NCBI GenBank assembly: GCA_964464405.1 | Contig: CAYXFX010000001.1 | Span: 3,466 to 67,465, forward strand | Length of the DNA stretch: 64,000 bases | Direction of reading: 5' to 3' | From: an uncultured Candidatus Saccharibacteria bacterium | GTDB taxonomy: Bacteria > Patescibacteriota > Minisyncoccia > UBA11713 > 2-01-FULL-45-33 | Shown here: in pieces, positions 7,084 through 28,870 of the stretch | Position numbering within the stretch: position 1 is the stretch's first letter | How the letters are laid out: each line of letters starts with the position of its first letter | Translations under genes and position numbers: made by a program | The notes under the pieces: model-generated | What the model was told of the DNA's origin: nothing | What the model saw: the letters and a program-made list of their open reading frames with translations, nothing else | The model's database searches: none

Positions 7084-7184
7084 TTGCGTATTTTTTTTCA
7101 TTTGCTAATTCATTCCGGCTTGCGCTGGATTTTTTTTTATGTTATGCTCCTACTATTCAATTCACCCGCCAAAATTTTTTAATT

Positions 7185-7448
7185 ATGTACTATGTTTATG
7201 TATTAAAAAGTAAGGCGGATGGACATTTGTACACGGGTTGCACAAAGAATTTAAAAGCTCGACTTGAAATGCATAATTGTGGTAATGTAGAATCTACCAA
7301 AAACAGAATGCCTTTCGTGCTTGTGTATTATGAAGCGTTTTTAAACAAAAATGACGCTTTTGCAAGAGAACAATGGCTTAAAACGGGATGGGGTCGTAAT
7401 CATTTAAGCAAAATATTAAAAAATTATTTAAAAAATTTAGGCGGGTAA
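7185..7448 (+). CDS. GIY-YIG nuclease domain protein (YhbQ/UPF0213-like)
   Basis: YVYVLKS...HLYTGCTKNLKARLEMHN GIY-YIG core; 87 aa, abuts rpsL. Confidence 0.75.
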   Translation: MYYVYVLKSKADGHLYTGCTKNLKARLEMHNCGNVESTKNRMPFVLVYYEAFLNKNDAFAREQWLKTGWGRNHLSKILKNYLKNLGG

Positions 7449-7862
7449 ATGCCAACCATTAATCAATTAATAAAAAAGGGAAGAACCCCGATTACATATA
7501 AATCGAAAGCCGTTGCTTTGGAGAAAGGTTTTAATATTTTAAAAAATCGCCCGAGATTTTATCCTTCGCCATTTAAGCGCGGTGTTTGCCTTTCCGTAAA
7601 AACAATGACACCCAAAAAGCCGAATTCCGCTTTGCGTAAGGTTGCAAGAGTCCGGTTGACCAATGGAATGGAAGTAACTGCATATATCGGAGGCGAGGGG
7701 CATACATTGCAAGAGCACTCTGTTGTGGTAATCCGCGGAGGAAGAGTAAAAGACTTGCCTGGAGTCAGATACCACATTGTGCGCGGAGTTTTGGATACAA
7801 CAGGAGTTGAAAATCGAAAACAGCAAAGAAGCAAATATGGAACAAAAAGACCGAAAAAATGA
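7449..7862 (+). CDS. rpsL: 30S ribosomal protein S12
   Basis: PTINQL ... [10 protein letters not shown] ... [27 protein letters not shown]; ~13-aa insertion near N-terminus. Confidence 0.95.
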
Positions 7863-16989: not shown

Positions 16990-17331
16990 ATGAAAGAAAT
17001 AAAAGCACATTTAAGATATTTGAGGATGGCGCCACGGAAAGTGAGGGTTGTTGGAAATGCAATTAGGGGGAAATCTGCGGTGTCCGCAAGCATCGCGCTT
17101 AAACTTATGCCGCGGCGCCCAGCCGAGCCTTTGTTGAAGCTCCTCCGTTCGGCTGTCGCAAACGCAAAGCACAATTTTAATATTTCTGAAGAAAAGCTTG
17201 TTGTTTCCGGCGTTCGTGTGGATAAGGGACCGATTTTAAAACGCTTTATGCCTAGGGCCCGCGGTATGGGCGCTTCGATTCACAAGCATTCGAGTCATAT
17301 TACGATAGTTCTAAAGGAATCGGCTAAATAA
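16990..17331 (+). CDS. rplV: 50S ribosomal protein L22
   Basis: L22 family, operon position. Confidence 0.9.
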   Translation: MKEIKAHLRYLRMAPRKVRVVGNAIRGKSAVSASIALKLMPRRPAEPLLKLLRSAVANAKHNFNISEEKLVVSGVRVDKGPILKRFMPRARGMGASIHKHSSHITIVLKESAK

Positions 17332-17336
17332 AATTT

Positions 17337-18014
17337 ATGAGCAAAACATCACATCCATACGCTTTAAGAATAGGAATTTTGCGGACATGGAAGTCGCGCT
17401 GGTTTAACACGGGAAAATACAGACATCTTTTAAAAGAAGATATCGGACTCAGGGAATTACTGGCAAAAAAATTAAGGGGCATGTTTGTTGATTCGGTAGA
17501 TATTGAAAGATCTCCGACTTCTTTAAACATTACCATAAAAACGGGGCGCCCCGGGCTTTTGATAGGAAGAGGGGGGGAAGGAATCGAAAAATTAAAAAAC
17601 GAAGTTGTTTTATGGTTGAATAAGACAAGAACGAAAGAAAAGAAATTGGAAAAATTAAATCCGGGCGCGGTTAAATTGAACGTGGAAGAAATTAAAACTC
17701 CGGAAATGTATTCAAATATTGTAGTTGAGCAAATTGCGCAGGATCTTGAGAAGCGCCTTCCTTTCAGGCGGGTGATGAAGCAAAACTTAAGCAAGGTTAT
17801 GGCGGTCCACGAAGTGGAAGGTGTAAAAATTGCTCTTTCTGGAAGATTGGATGGAGCTGAAATGGCGCGCTATGAGTGGTTGCGGGAAGGGAAAATTCCG
17901 TTGCAAACATTAAGGGCAGACGTCGATTTTGCGAGAGGCAGAGCTCATCTGCCTTATGGAGACTTAGGAATCAAGGTGTGGATTTATAAAGGCGAGGTTT
18001 TTTATAAAAAATAA
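17337..18014 (+). CDS. rpsC: 30S ribosomal protein S3
   Basis: KH domain and S3 C-terminal domain motifs. Confidence 0.9.
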   Translation: MSKTSHPYALRIGILRTWKSRWFNTGKYRHLLKEDIGLRELLAKKLRGMFVDSVDIERSPTSLNITIKTGRPGLLIGRGGEGIEKLKNEVVLWLNKTRTKEKKLEKLNPGAVKLNVEEIKTPEMYSNIVVEQIAQDLEKRLPFRRVMKQNLSKVMAVHEVEGVKIALSGRLDGAEMARYEWLREGKIPLQTLRADVDFARGRAHLPYGDLGIKVWIYKGEVFYKK

Positions 18015-18445: not shown

Positions 18446-18634
18446 ATGACCAAAATAAAAGATTTAAAAAATTTAAGCAGGGAAGATTTAAGCGCGAAAC
18501 TAAAGGAAGACAAAGCCAGGATTTTAGAGCTGCGCATGAAAAGCTACCAATCGCGGCTTAAAAATGTTAAAGAAGTAAGAAGCATTCGAAAAGATATAGC
18601 ACGGATTTTAACTTTATTAAACCAAAAGAATTAA
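18446..18634 (+). CDS. rpmC: 50S ribosomal protein L29
   Basis: size, helical Lys-rich sequence, position after rplP. Confidence 0.85.
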   Translation: MTKIKDLKNLSREDLSAKLKEDKARILELRMKSYQSRLKNVKEVRSIRKDIARILTLLNQKN

Positions 18635-18635
18635 T

Positions 18636-18863
18636 ATGCAAACACTAAAAGGGAAAATTGTTTCGAATAAAATGAAAAACACCGTTACGGTGGAAGTTTC
18701 GCGCTTAAAAAAACACCGCCGGTACGGGAAATATATGAAAATTTCAAAAAAGTACAAGGCACACACGGAAGAAAATTTATCGGAAGGAATTGATGTATTA
18801 ATAAAGTCGTCTAAACCTATTTCAAAAGATAAGAGGTGGGTTGTGGCTGGAGTGATTAAATAA
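18636..18863 (+). CDS. rpsQ: 30S ribosomal protein S17
   Basis: [17 protein letters not shown]...S17 family. Confidence 0.9.
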
Positions 18864-21280: not shown

Positions 21281-21628
21281 ATGAAAGTTCAAACAAAAAG
21301 ACAAGTCAGACACAAAAGAATAAGGGCGAAAATTAAAGGCACGAAGGAGATTCCCCGCCTTTCGGTTTATAGATCACGGAAGCATTTATTTTTGCAACTA
21401 ATAGATGATAAGAAAAACGAGACTCTTGTTGGTTTGTCAGACAAGGTTTTAAAAATAAAAAAGAAAACGACAAAATCAGAGCTCGCGCATGAAGCCGGCA
21501 AATTGCTTGCGAAAACCGCGCTTGAGATGGGAATTAAAAAGGCGGTATTTGACAGGGGGGGTTATTTGTATAAAGGGCGGATTGTAAAAGCGGCAGAGGG
21601 CGCGAGAGCAGGCGGATTAAAATTTTAA
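21281..21628 (+). CDS. rplR: 50S ribosomal protein L18
   Basis: L18 family, operon position. Confidence 0.9.
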   Translation: MKVQTKRQVRHKRIRAKIKGTKEIPRLSVYRSRKHLFLQLIDDKKNETLVGLSDKVLKIKKKTTKSELAHEAGKLLAKTALEMGIKKAVFDRGGYLYKGRIVKAAEGARAGGLKF

Positions 21629-21683
21629 GGAATTGGCTCAAAATTTATGAGCAAAGCGAAATAAATTTTGATTGCCAAACCTT

Positions 21684-21798
21684 ACCCCCTCACCAATTTT
21701 TACAAAGTATGAATAAAGATAAAAATATGTTAAAACGAAATAAAAATTATATAGCAGAAAAAAGAGCGCCAGTAGAAATTGGTGAGGGGGTGCTCAAT
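21684..21798. repeat. 16-bp perfect inverted repeat (ACCCCCTCACCAATTT / AAATTGGTGAGGGGGT) enclosing ~75 nt AT-rich loop, between rplR and rpsE
   Basis: Arms read directly; 200-nt gap where rplR and rpsE are normally adjacent. Confidence 0.6.
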
Positions 21799-21832
21799 TT
21801 TATTAGCTCACTAAAGTTCGTATAAAATTGGC

Positions 21833-22330
21833 ATGGCAAGAAGAGAATTTAGACAGCAAAAACCGAAAAGCGAATATGAGCAAAAGCTGATAGATCTTAG
21901 GCGTGTGGCGCGCGTCGTAGCGGGAGGACGGCGGTTTACTTTCCGCGCGGCTATTGTTTTGGGAAACCAAAAGGGAGAAGTTGGATTTGGTTTGGGTAAA
22001 GCCGCCGACACATCGCACGCAATAGAAAAAGCAGTGAGGATGGCAAGAAAATCACTCATCCGCGTTCCGCTTACAAAGGAACAGTCAATTCCGCACGAAG
22101 TGTACGCGAAGTTCGGCGCGGCTGAAATAATTTTGAAGCCCGCAAAAACAGGGAAAGGATTGGTTGCGGGAGGAGCCGCGCGGACCGTGCTCGCTCTTGC
22201 GGGAGTAAAAAACGCAAGTGCTAAAATTTTATCACATACAAAAAATAAACTTACCAACGCTAGGGCGACGCTAGACGCACTTAGACTTTTAAAAGAAAAA
22301 AAACAAGCAAAAGAACATGCAAGTTCATAA
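21833..22330 (+). CDS. rpsE: 30S ribosomal protein S5
   Basis: S5 dsRBD and C-terminal domain motifs (GRRFTFRAAIVLGNQKGEVGFGLGKA). Confidence 0.95.
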   Translation: MARREFRQQKPKSEYEQKLIDLRRVARVVAGGRRFTFRAAIVLGNQKGEVGFGLGKAADTSHAIEKAVRMARKSLIRVPLTKEQSIPHEVYAKFGAAEIILKPAKTGKGLVAGGAARTVLALAGVKNASAKILSHTKNKLTNARATLDALRLLKEKKQAKEHASS

Positions 22331-28108: not shown

Positions 28109-28870
28109 ATGAAGAAAATCATTATTGCAAACTGGAAAATGAATCCTAGAACCGCAAGCGAAGTAAAGATGCTTGCACGCGCGGTTACGGAAGGTGTAAA
28201 AAAGATAAAAAATATGGAAATCACGCTTTGCCCTCCTTTTTTGTTTGTTTCTGCAGTAAAAAAAATAATTGCAAATAAAAAAAATATCAAATTAGGCGCT
28301 CAAAATGTATTTTCTGAAAAAGCGGGGGCTTTTACCGGAGAAATTTCTGCCACGCAACTTAAATCCATCGGAGTCGGGCTGGTAATTGTCGGCCATTCCG
28401 AAAGACGTGCGTTAGGGGAAAGCAAGGAGATAATAAATAAAAAATTACGCTGTGCATTGGAAGGCGGGCTAAACGCGGTTTTATGCATAGGCGAGAAAGA
28501 AAAATCCAAAGAAGGACTTTCCGGCATTATCCGCGAAGAACTTTATTCTGCAATTAAGGGAATTAAGAAATCATTACTACTGAACAAATTAATAATAGTG
28601 TATGAGCCGATTTGGGCGATAAGTACAAATCCAGGATCAGAACCAGATGATCCGCAAAATGTCTACGAGACGACGATTTTATTAAAAAGAGATCTTTTAA
28701 AGATTTTGGGCAGGCGCGCCGCGTCCCAGATTCCTATTTTATATGGAGGTTCGGTAAATGAAAAAAATGTCGTGGGCTTTAAAAAAAGCGGAATAGACGG
28801 GTTTTTGGTGGGAAGCGCGTCTCTTAACGCGGGTAAATTTATAAAAATTGTTAAATTTGCTGCATTATGA
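28109..28870 (+). CDS. tpiA: triosephosphate isomerase
   Basis: IIANWKMN, VIVGHSERR, LCIGE, YEPIWAI. Confidence 0.9.
   Translation: MKKIIIANWKMNPRTASEVKMLARAVTEGVKKIKNMEITLCPPFLFVSAVKKIIANKKNIKLGAQNVFSEKAGAFTGEISATQLKSIGVGLVIVGHSERRALGESKEIINKKLRCALEGGLNAVLCIGEKEKSKEGLSGIIREELYSAIKGIKKSLLLNKLIIVYEPIWAISTNPGSEPDDPQNVYETTILLKRDLLKILGRRAASQIPILYGGSVNEKNVVGFKKSGIDGFLVGSASLNAGKFIKIVKFAAL

What the first reader, a model, noticed from the sequence alone, without database searches (positions are those of the whole stretch)
21629..21832. 16-bp perfect inverted repeat with ~75-nt loop inserted between rplR and rpsE
The arms ACCCCCTCACCAATTT (21684-21699) and AAATTGGTGAGGGGGT (21775-21798 region) are perfectly complementary. 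They are GC-rich relative to the AT-rich loop, which could encode only a 15-codon peptide. A 200-nt gap at this position in the spc operon is unusual, because rplR and rpsE are usually under 20 nt apart. Candidates are an RNase III processing stem, a regulatory RNA or leader acting on downstream rpsE-rplO-secY, or a miniature inverted-repeat element that landed in the operon.
Basis: seen in the sequence. Interest (0 to 1): 0.5.

Follow-up and report, generated by a model that had tools for sequence, protein, structure and literature searches.

The report
Hairpin insertion element between rplR and rpsE
The inverted repeat is real and marks a small, probably mobile hairpin-forming DNA insert that one uncultivated Giovannonibacteria species acquired inside its ribosomal-protein operon; its only detectable relatives are inserts that rewrote the signal peptides of pilin genes in an unrelated phylum.

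Summary
There is a perfect 16-nt inverted repeat (21684-21699 / 21776-21791; 20 nt at 95%) in a 204-nt rplR-rpsE spacer. The whole spacer folds into three adjacent hairpins (z = -7.9). It is not a conserved operon regulator: five related Giovannonibacteria have spacers of 4, 8, 9, 34 and 96 nt, so about 195 nt is a species-specific insertion. No Rfam family matches, and there is no second copy in the 64-kb window. The repeat-bounded 108-nt core has relatives. The same arms, length and part of the interior occur at three different type IV prepilin genes in Planctomycetota contigs. Each copy is absent from the orthologous gene of a relative, and each supplies a new start codon and leader peptide (…SNFLA..KLVRG|F). 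Arm complementarity is kept through two double-sided changes. The best reading is a MITE-like, repeat-bounded insertion module co-transcribed with the spc operon. A 38-codon ORF that starts in its loop ends 7 nt before the rpsE start and may preserve translational coupling (inferred). Target-site duplication, genomic copy number and an autonomous partner are unproven. Interest is moderate.

The parts
21281..21628 (+). rplR (L18), the upstream gene; stop codon TAA at 21626-21628
   Evidence: ORF list; Pfam Ribosomal_L18p on the identical gene in L001
21629..21832 (+). 204-nt rplR-rpsE spacer, of which about 195 nt (21631/21638-21825/21832) is a species-specific insertion
   Evidence: Relatives have spacers of 4, 8, 9, 34 and 96 nt. 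Removing the block bounded by the 7-bp repeat leaves TAA-GGAATTGGC-ATG, a 9-nt spacer like that of L005.
21631..21637 (+). Left copy of the 7-bp direct repeat AATTGGC flanking the whole inserted block
   Evidence: Read from the sequence. A possible target duplication of the whole block, not of the repeat-bounded core.
21826..21832 (+). Right copy of the 7-bp direct repeat AATTGGC, immediately before the rpsE ATG
   Evidence: Read from the sequence
21626..21684 (+). Hairpin H1 (core arms 21638-21648 / 21661-21671, perfect 11 bp, extended by TTGGC/GCCAA and UAAGG/CCUUA). Its left side (21627-21655) resembles the rplV-rpsC junction at 17314-17345.
   Evidence: the repeat finder I3; minimum-free-energy fold; local alignment with 27 of 29 matches, the best score in the window (39 against 29 for the next)
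21647..21664 (+). Mini-ORF ATGAGCAAAGCGAAATAA (MSKAK*) in the H1 loop; its start context is identical over 16 nt to the rpsC start
   Evidence: Sequence; 16-nt exact match to 17330-17345
21684..21791 (+). Repeat-bounded core element (108 nt): left arm 21684-21703, A+T-rich interior, right arm 21772-21791
   Evidence: the repeat finder I1; fold z = -7.7. An HMM built only from four Planctomycetota copies hits exactly here, full length, + strand, E = 6.2e-6, and nowhere else in the window. The covariance model finds no other copy.
21709..21825 (+). 38-codon ORF (second in-frame ATG at 21727) that starts in the loop, reads out through the right arm and H3, and stops (TAA 21823-21825) 7 nt before the rpsE ATG
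   Evidence: ORF list. In dinucleotide shuffles, P(ORF of at least 38 codons) = 0.04 and P(ORF of at least 32 codons ending within 10 nt of the rpsE ATG) = 0.011. No Pfam hit and no real homologue among 1.84 billion representatives.
21792..21832 (+). Hairpin H3 (arms 21795-21803 / 21822-21830, perfect 9 bp); it occludes the 10 nt in front of the rpsE start
   Evidence: the repeat finder I10; minimum-free-energy fold
21833..22330 (+). rpsE (S5), the downstream gene
   Evidence: ORF list; 100% identical to NCBI 'Candidatus Giovannonibacteria bacterium' S5

Best explanation
The inverted repeat is the pair of terminal repeats of a roughly 108-nt, non-coding-sized insertion element. It lies inside a roughly 195-nt block that this one Giovannonibacteria species acquired between rplR and rpsE. 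It is a selfish or neutral MITE-like insert, not an ancestral regulator of the spc operon.

The element belongs to a small, previously undescribed family. Each member has arms ACCCC(C)NNACCAATTT / AAATTGGTGNGGGG(G)T, is about 105-108 nt long, and has an A+T-rich interior with an internal ATG that reads outward through the right arm. The other known members sit at the leader/mature junction of three different type IV prepilin genes in Planctomycetota. There the element supplies a new start codon and leader peptide.

In the window the insert is transcribed as part of the operon mRNA, because there is no terminator. It folds into three adjacent hairpins.

Inferred, not shown: expression of rpsE and the genes after it survives because ribosomes start at the element's own ATG (21709 or 21727) in the unstructured loop. 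They then melt the right arm and H3 and terminate 7 nt before the rpsE ATG, which restores translational coupling. The 20-bp stem would also be a good RNase III substrate, so cleavage there is a likely side effect.
For: Shown:
- The repeat and the three-hairpin fold are real and far beyond chance.
- The spacer is 100% identical in the window and four further assemblies, so it is not an assembly artefact.
- Related Giovannonibacteria have spacers of 4, 8, 9, 34 and 96 nt with no similarity to this one.
- Of 60 exact-arm sites recovered from GTDB representative genomes, JGI metagenomes and IMG/VR, one had a partner arm with at most 1 mismatch within 400 nt (expected by chance about 5e-4; my estimate). 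This was L019, with a 73-nt loop.
- The same element occurs at L073/L074, L072 and L076.
- Each Planctomycetota copy has an empty orthologous site in a relative. L075 and L072 read MKKA|FTITELL where L019 and L073 carry the element. L019 and L073 are empty where L072 carries it. L078 reads MKAEKIKG|FTLIELL where L076 carries it.
- An HMM built from the Planctomycetota copies alone finds the window element, full length, in the sense orientation only (E = 6.2e-6).
- Arm pairing is 95% over five sequences. There are two double-sided changes, in L072, where synonymous changes in the coding right arm (AGG to CGG, GGG to GGT) are matched in the non-coding left arm.
- The L019 and L073 copies are 96% identical, while the flanking coding sequence is 84% and the upstream gene 77%.
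- No terminator-like site lies in the spacer.
- The ORF length and its end position have shuffle probabilities of 0.04 and 0.011.

From the literature: co-transcribed MITE hairpins (Correia elements) are cut by RNase III at their terminal repeats, and Rickettsia palindromic elements fuse in frame with host genes (PMC10969869, PMC2649163).
Against: - There is no target-site duplication directly at the repeat ends in the window (CTT|ACCCCC...GGGGGT|GCT). Only the larger block has a 7-bp flanking repeat, and that block has no terminal inverted repeats.
- No second copy exists in the 64-kb window. No copy with a window-like interior was found in any collection searched.
- Similarity of the interior to the Planctomycetota copies is weak. 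It adds about 7 bits beyond the arms, and the local loop alignment has p of about 0.03. The link was found through the arms, so there is ascertainment bias.
- The window copy does not keep the conserved leader peptide. A TAG sits just before KLVRG in that frame.
- The left end of the block resembles the rplV-rpsC junction of the same operon. This points to local duplication or template switching in building at least part of the block.
- No transposase or autonomous partner is known.
- The coupling and RNase III steps are inference only.
Confidence: 0.6

Rival explanations
1. It is an operon-specific cis-acting RNA. The three hairpins would be an RNase III processing site or mRNA stabiliser, or a ribosomal-protein-binding leader, selected to uncouple or tune expression of rpsE-rplO-secY relative to the upstream genes.
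For: The fold is extremely stable and occupies the whole spacer (z = -7.95). The perfect 20-bp stem suits RNase III (own knowledge, and PMC10969869 for Correia elements). H3 covers the rpsE start region. The arms are perfect while the interior has diverged from its relatives.
Against: The structure is absent from all five related species examined, including one with 89% identical S5 and a 9-nt spacer. No Rfam match was found. The core is homologous to inserts in unrelated genes of another phylum, so it did not evolve here for this operon.
Confidence: 0.15
2. The palindromes were generated locally, by template switching or inverted duplication during replication plus ectopic copying of neighbouring operon sequence. 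There was no mobile element, and the match to the Planctomycetota sequences is coincidental or reflects a shared short motif.
For: The left end of the block (21627-21655) matches the rplV-rpsC junction 4.3 kb upstream in 27 of 29 positions, the best local match in the window. H1 and H3 are weakly similar to each other (p of about 0.05). There is no duplication at the repeat ends. The spacer at this junction varies in the clade: 34 nt of tandem ATTTCTA in L007 and 96 nt in L008.
Against: A 16/16 plus 15/16 arm match, the same loop length (73-76 nt) and a positionally matching interior motif (TGAATA-AGA-AAAAATATG) in L019/L073 are very unlikely by chance. The Planctomycetota copies themselves show clean filled and empty sites at three loci.
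Confidence: 0.12
3. It is a decayed fragment of the 5' end of a type IV prepilin gene (5' UTR, leader and first codons), pasted into the operon by illegitimate recombination or horizontal transfer. It would be a gene relic rather than an element with its own mobility.
For: In Planctomycetota the right arm encodes KLVRG, the end of a prepilin leader, and the leader is under protein-level selection (3-4 synonymous codon differences between copies). The window copy reads ...*KLVRGCSILLAH* in that frame.
Against: Homology stops exactly at the ends of the repeat. Nothing pilin-like follows the right arm. In Planctomycetota the unit itself is an insert into pre-existing pilin genes whose old start codons are still visible. 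No prepilin motif occurs in the window.
Confidence: 0.08
4. It is an invertible DNA switch (inverton). The arms would be recombinase sites, and flipping the 68-76-bp segment would turn a promoter or start codon on or off.
For: The inverted repeat flanks an A+T-rich segment with weak promoter-like hexamers on both strands. In the Planctomycetota copies, inversion would disconnect the start codon from the pilin. In one metagenome two contigs overlap, and one of them starts inside the element (L019/L032).
Against: The window and four further assemblies all have the same orientation and identical sequence. A segment of 68-76 bp is shorter than known invertible segments (own knowledge). No recombinase gene is adjacent.
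Confidence: 0.03

Closest known systems
Correia repeat-enclosed elements (CREE/NEMIS) of Neisseria
   Same: Both are about 100-150-bp units bounded by terminal inverted repeats with an A+T-rich core. Both insert next to or between genes, are co-transcribed, and fold into a long hairpin. For Correia elements that hairpin is bound or cut by RNase III and alters expression of neighbours (PMC2649163, PMC10969869).
   Different: The sequences are unrelated. There is no TA target duplication here. Correia elements have tens to hundreds of copies per genome, whereas here there is one copy in 64 kb. No promoter or IHF function is shown. The host is a CPR bacterium.
Rickettsia palindromic elements (RPE)
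   Same: These are palindromic inserts of about 100-150 bp that carry an open frame and end up translated as part of host proteins (PMC10969869). The Planctomycetota members of the present family are translated as the N-terminal leader of pilins.
   Different: RPEs insert internally and rely on the host gene's start. This family brings its own start codon and sits exactly at the prepilin cleavage junction. The window copy is intercistronic, and its ORF is not fused to rpsE.
Generic bacterial MITEs and palindromic repeats (ERIC/IRU, RUP, BOX, REP/BIME)
   Same: Small size, no transposase, terminal or internal palindromes, intergenic location inside operons, and presence/absence polymorphism between relatives (PMC2229807, PMC10969869).
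   Different: Multi-copy status, a target-site duplication and an autonomous partner are not demonstrated. The family spans two phyla with nearly identical arms.
Translational coupling through short upstream ORFs (termination-reinitiation in ribosomal protein operons)
   Same: The 38-codon ORF ends 7 nt before the rpsE ATG and passes through the hairpin that masks the start region. This is the classical geometry of coupled cistrons (own knowledge; geometry).
   Different: Here the coupling ORF would be supplied by an inserted element rather than by the upstream ribosomal protein gene. There is no experimental support.

Membership tests
MITE (miniature inverted-repeat transposable element) | Terminal inverted repeats | tested here: met
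   16-nt perfect and 20-nt 95% arms. Arms are kept in all five family members, 95% paired.
MITE (miniature inverted-repeat transposable element) | Small size and no transposase gene | tested here: met
   The core is 108 nt and the whole block 195 nt. The only ORF is 38 codons, with no Pfam hit.
MITE (miniature inverted-repeat transposable element) | Target-site duplication flanking the terminal repeats | tested here: inconclusive
   Window: none at the repeat ends (CTT|...|GCT). A 7-bp repeat AATTGGC flanks only the larger block. Planctomycetota copies: short direct repeats at the junctions (TTTAC(C) in L019, TTT/GGTTT in L072, TCAC in L076), but the boundaries are ambiguous.
MITE (miniature inverted-repeat transposable element) | Several copies within one genome | tested here: inconclusive
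   No second copy in the 64-kb window by exact word, HMM or covariance model. The source genome is not in the GTDB representative set, so the rest of the genome could not be searched. Each Planctomycetota locus sampled holds one copy.
MITE (miniature inverted-repeat transposable element) | Presence/absence polymorphism: filled and empty sites in relatives | tested here: met
   The window locus is empty in five related Giovannonibacteria. The three Planctomycetota loci each have an empty orthologue.
MITE (miniature inverted-repeat transposable element) | Autonomous IS with matching ends able to mobilise it in trans | not tested
   No IS database was available. No match in the plasmid, phage or IMG/VR collections.
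Correia repeat-enclosed element | TA target duplication and the Neisseria 26-bp terminal-repeat consensus | tested here: not met
   The flanks are CTT / GCT, with no TA duplication. The arm sequence ACCCCCTCACCAATTT was not compared with the Correia terminal-repeat consensus here. The host is a CPR bacterium.
Correia repeat-enclosed element | RNase III cleavage of the co-transcribed hairpin | not testable with these tools
   Needs RNA end-mapping. Only the 20-bp stem is shown.
Known structured RNA families (Rfam 15), including ribosomal protein leaders | Score at or above the family's gathering threshold | tested here: not met
   Nothing in the spacer at gathering threshold. The best sub-threshold match is a plant microRNA precursor model at 31 of 71 bits. 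Nothing for the L076 copy.
Conserved operon-specific cis-regulator (ribosomal protein leader or attenuator) | Conserved at the orthologous position in related genomes | tested here: not met
   Spacers of 4, 8, 9, 34 and 96 nt in relatives, none similar.
Intrinsic terminator | Short-loop G+C-rich stem followed directly by a U run | tested here: not met
   No terminator-like site between 21629 and 21832. The loop is 68 nt, and the nearest T run starts 7 nt after the stem.
Invertible promoter switch (inverton) | Both orientations present in the population | tested here: inconclusive
   The window and four further assemblies are identical and in one orientation.
RPE-like in-frame palindromic insert | Element ORF fused in frame to the host protein | tested here: not met
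   Window: the ORF stops 7 nt before rpsE and is not fused. The feature is met only by the Planctomycetota copies.

The most novel reading that the evidence does not exclude
The repeat-bounded unit is a cross-phylum 'portable translation-start module'. It would be a roughly 105-nt hairpin element that carries its own initiation site and an outward-reading frame. This lets it insert at gene 5' ends or between coupled cistrons without killing the downstream gene. In Planctomycetota it has repeatedly replaced the leader peptide of type IV prepilins exactly at the cleavage junction. In a CPR bacterium it bridges rplR and rpsE. The arms would be kept complementary because the hairpin, as RNA or as single-stranded DNA, is needed for its function or its mobility.
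Probability: 0.25. Interest if true: 0.75.

Novelty: new variant of a known kind. Interest (0 to 1): 0.45.

Why it matters
For the window itself the result is sobering. The striking stem is not a conserved control element of the spc operon. It is a recent insert that an essential, tightly coupled ribosomal-protein operon tolerates. That tolerance is informative: it shows how a 204-nt structured spacer can sit between two normally abutting cistrons in a reduced CPR genome, and it gives a concrete, testable relay-ORF model.

The wider point is the family. Nearly identical arms occur in Patescibacteria and Planctomycetota. Three independent insertions lie precisely at the prepilin cleavage junction, each donating a conserved new leader. 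Changes in the arms are compensated. If this is confirmed as a mobile module, it would add a MITE type that carries a start codon and signal peptide, and it would show a route by which pilin leaders are rewritten. It would also hint at DNA exchange between CPR bacteria and other sediment or groundwater bacteria.

Tried and rejected
- **Rfam.** Searched at gathering and at permissive thresholds on the window and on a Planctomycetota copy. Nothing meaningful.
- **tRNA and tmRNA scan.** Nothing in the region.
- **Arm 20-mer in GTDB representative genomes.** Two hits, both inside a coding sequence of Candidatus Obscuribacter with no partner arm, so chance. The source genome is not in that collection.
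- **Arm 18-mer in JGI metagenomes.** 52 single hits. All are seed-only matches except L019 and its overlapping contig L032.
- **IMG/VR, plasmid and phage collections.** No relevant match.
- **38-residue ORF as a protein.** No Pfam family. The only representative hit is a repetitive 742-residue protein at 29% identity, judged spurious.
- **Covariance-model hit at 28226-28333 (E about 0.01).** It lies inside the tpiA coding sequence and is chance pairing, so rejected.
- **H1 and H3 as duplicated ends of a larger element.** Only marginal similarity (p of about 0.05). The block has no terminal inverted repeats.
- **IS200/IS605-type reading** (hairpins at both ends, TTAC to the left of the element in all copies). 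Considered, but the AC belongs to the inverted repeat and no Y1 transposase is in sight, so not pursued.
- **Contig ends of L076/L077 as evidence of a second copy.** The ends carry other simple repeats, not the element.
- **5S rRNA or S8-site mimicry.** No support from Rfam or from the topology, which is three serial hairpins and not a junction.

Full report
**Context**

The window carries the S10-spc-alpha ribosomal protein cluster of an uncultivated 'Candidatus Giovannonibacteria bacterium' (Patescibacteria/CPR). Its S5 protein is 100% identical to an NCBI entry of that name, and the next-best hits are all Giovannonibacteria. rplR ends at 21628 and rpsE starts at 21833. Every other junction from rplX to adk is between -14 and about +20 nt. 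The 204-nt spacer is therefore the single outlier in this stretch.

**Checking the observation**

- The 16-mers ACCCCCTCACCAATTT (21684-21699) and AAATTGGTGAGGGGGT (21776-21791) are perfectly complementary. The pairing extends to 20 nt at 95%.
- The 16-mer has no other exact copy in the window.
- Arms are 50% G+C and the loop is 24%.
- The isolated hairpin folds at -32.2 kcal/mol (z = -7.7).
There are three adjacent hairpins: H1 at 21626-21684, the inverted repeat, and H3 at 21792-21832. Together they give -62.8 kcal/mol, z = -7.95 as RNA and z = -6.4 as single-stranded DNA.
- The loop does not encode 'only 15 codons'. A 38-codon ORF (21709-21825) starts in the loop and stops 7 nt before the rpsE ATG.
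- The spacer is identical in four further assemblies of the same strain, so it is not an assembly artefact.

**Not a conserved regulator**

No Rfam family matches at gathering or permissive thresholds. No terminator-like site lies in the spacer.

I fetched the orthologous locus from relatives found through their S5 proteins. The spacers were:

| Relative | S5 identity | rplR-rpsE spacer |
|---|---|---|
| L005 | 89% | 9 nt |
| P0003 contig | 85% | 4 nt |
| L071 | 81% | 8 nt |
| L007 | 80% | 34 nt, tandem ATTTCTA |
| L008 | 84% | 96 nt, unrelated |

Relative to L005 the window has a clean insertion of about 195 nt. A 7-bp direct repeat AATTGGC (21631-21637 and 21826-21832) flanks it. Removing one copy plus the intervening DNA leaves TAA-GGAATTGGC-ATG, a 9-nt spacer with an AAGGA Shine-Dalgarno-like motif 6 nt upstream of the ATG.

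**Looking for other copies**

- The arm 20-mer in 185,579 GTDB representative genomes gave only a chance coding hit in Obscuribacter. This also showed that the source genome is not in that set.
- The arm 18-mer in JGI metagenomes gave 52 sites, and the 16-mer in IMG/VR gave 6. BLAST showed seed-only matches.
- A script then checked each site for a partner arm. It found exactly one with at most 1 mismatch: L019, with ACCCCCACACCAATTT, then 73 nt, then AAATTGGTGAGGGGGT. For 60 sites and 800 nt searched per site, I estimate the chance expectation at about 5e-4.
- The L019 loop shares TGAATA-AGA-AAAAATATG with the window loop at the same offset from the arm.

**What the L019 copy is**

L019 is from a Planctomycetota bacterium. 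Homologues of its neighbouring gene are annotated Sedimentisphaerales or Phycisphaerae. The element sits at the 5' end of a prepilin gene. The right arm encodes KLVRG, directly followed by FTISELLVAIG.

Fetching relatives gave a clear picture.

1. L073 and L074 carry the same element at the same gene. L075 and L072 do not, and their gene starts ATGAAAAAAGCA|TTC... (MKKA|FTITELL). In L019 the old start ATGAGAAAGGCATTTAC is still visible just left of the element, and TTTAC(C) is repeated on both sides.
2. L072 carries a diverged copy (ACCCCGTACCAATTT...AAATTGGTGCGGGGT) in a different gene, the PilV-like one. It is again inserted at the Gly|Phe junction, and the old leader MKLRQKNNG is retained upstream. 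L019 and L073 are empty at that gene.
3. L076 carries a copy in a third pilin gene. Its orthologue in L078 reads MKAEKIKG|FTLIELL with no element. Pfam places the N-methylation motif of the L076 protein at residues 39-62, which confirms the long leader.

In all Planctomycetota copies the element provides an ATG and a 21-residue leader, M[RKQ]K[QR]I..., ending in ANKKLVRG in L019, L073 and L072 and in AINKLVRG in L076. Each pair of copies differs by 2-4 synonymous codon changes, so the peptide is under selection.

The L019 and L073 copies are 96% identical. The adjacent coding sequence is 84% identical and the upstream gene 77%.

**Is the window element a member?**

- An HMM built only from the four Planctomycetota copies hits the window once above threshold, at exactly 21684-21791, over its full length and in the sense orientation (E = 6.2e-6). 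The antisense orientation scores 0.31.
- On the five-sequence alignment the 16 arm pairs are 95% paired. There are two double-sided changes, both in L072. There, synonymous substitutions in the coding right arm are matched by changes in the non-coding left arm. This supports selection for complementarity, although five sequences are few (22 of 500 shuffles reach the observed values).
- A covariance model built from the five copies finds no further copy in the window or in about 130 kb of related loci. The one borderline hit lies inside tpiA and was rejected.
- The window copy has diverged inside. It lacks the SNFLA peptide, and the KLVRG frame is closed by a TAG. So it is a non-pilin, non-fused member.

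**The rest of the block**

- H1 and H3 are hairpins with perfect 11-bp and 9-bp cores. Their similarity to each other is only marginal (p of about 0.05).
- The left end of the block (21627-21655) matches the rplV-rpsC junction of the same operon (17314-17345) in 27 of 29 positions. This includes 16 exact nucleotides around the rpsC start codon. It is the best local match in the whole window, scoring 39 against 29 for the next.
- A mini-ORF MSKAK* (21647-21664) therefore has the initiation context of rpsC.
- Part of the block may have arisen by ectopic copying within the operon. This is the main evidence for the 'locally generated' rival.

**How it most likely works**

Shown: it is a lineage-specific insertion. 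Its core is bounded by an inverted repeat and belongs to a family with four independent insertion contexts. It lies in the sense orientation inside an operon, with no terminator.

Inferred: the operon mRNA folds into three hairpins. Ribosomes leaving rplR can restart at the rpsC-like mini-ORF. Ribosomes initiating at ATG 21709 or 21727, in the unstructured A-rich loop, read through the right arm and H3. They stop 7 nt before the rpsE ATG and so re-establish coupling. The chance of an ORF of at least 32 codons ending within 10 nt of the ATG is 0.011 in dinucleotide shuffles.

The 20-bp stem is also a plausible RNase III target, as documented for Correia elements (PMC10969869, PMC2649163).

**Comparison with known systems**

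The element works like a bacterial MITE or palindromic insert. The closest are Correia elements (co-transcribed hairpins in operons) and, for the pilin copies, Rickettsia palindromic elements (translated inserts).

Membership in the MITE class is only partly established. Terminal repeats, small size and filled/empty polymorphism are met. Target duplication and copy number are inconclusive. An autonomous partner was not tested. It is not a Correia element, not any Rfam family, not a terminator, and not a conserved ribosomal protein leader.

**Verdict**

Novelty is a new variant of a known kind. Interest is moderate (0.45). What raises it is the cross-phylum family and its repeated, precise rewriting of prepilin leaders. 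What limits it is the weak interior homology of the window copy, the lack of copy-number data and the absence of any expression evidence.

Noticed in passing
window 7160-7450: An 87-residue GIY-YIG nuclease ORF (7185-7448; Pfam GIY-YIG E = 3.6e-14) is enclosed exactly by a 26-nt inverted repeat (7160-7185 / 7425-7450, 88%). It abuts the start of rpsL (S12) at 7449. It looks like a second small repeat-bounded insert next to a ribosomal protein gene.
   Followed up: partly
window 17314-17345 and 21627-21655: The rplV-rpsC junction and the first 29 nt after the rplR stop are nearly identical (27 of 29 positions, with a 3-nt gap), including the rpsC start context AAAATTTATGAGCAAA. This suggests ectopic copying within the operon.
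   Followed up: partly
L007 1-394; L008 2980-4160; L070 496-1676: Related Giovannonibacteria carry other cargo inside the same operon. L007 has a ParE-toxin gene before rplE. L008 and L070 have a DUF433/PIN-like pair plus a reverse-strand FG-GAP gene between rpsE and rplO. The spc operon of this clade seems unusually permissive to insertions.
   Followed up: no
window 22317-22330 (rpsE/rplO junction): rplO follows rpsE directly, overlapping it by 14 nt, with no rpmD (L30) between them. This is consistent with the known absence of L30 in CPR bacteria (own knowledge).
   Followed up: no
L007 2467-2500: The 34-nt rplR-rpsE spacer of this relative is made of tandem ATTTCTA heptamers.
   Followed up: no
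L072 800-870 and 2078-2100: Runs of GATAACT/TAACTGA direct repeats lie upstream of two pilin genes in a Planctomycetota contig. They recall the intergenic TAACTGA repeats described in Beggiatoaceae (title of PMC4679880). A 23S-rRNA-IVP family gene is inserted between pilin genes at 1732-2079.
   Followed up: no
L019 3' end and L032 5' end: Two contigs of one metagenome overlap by about 125 nt, and L032 starts inside the element's loop. This could reflect a repeat or heterogeneity at the element in that population.
   Followed up: no
L073 2220-2250, L076 6524-6550: In the Planctomycetota copies the left arm has a second, nearby partner (CCCCCACA...TGTGGGGG). Two mutually exclusive pairings are therefore possible. 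In L073 the minimum-free-energy fold uses the local one. This may be a switch-like feature, and it is absent from the window copy.
   Followed up: no
window 18487-18501 / 18695-18709: A perfect 15-nt inverted repeat (TTTAAGCGCGAAACT / AGTTTCGCGCTTAAA), 193 nt apart, spans small ribosomal protein ORFs of the S10 operon. It was not examined.
   Followed up: no
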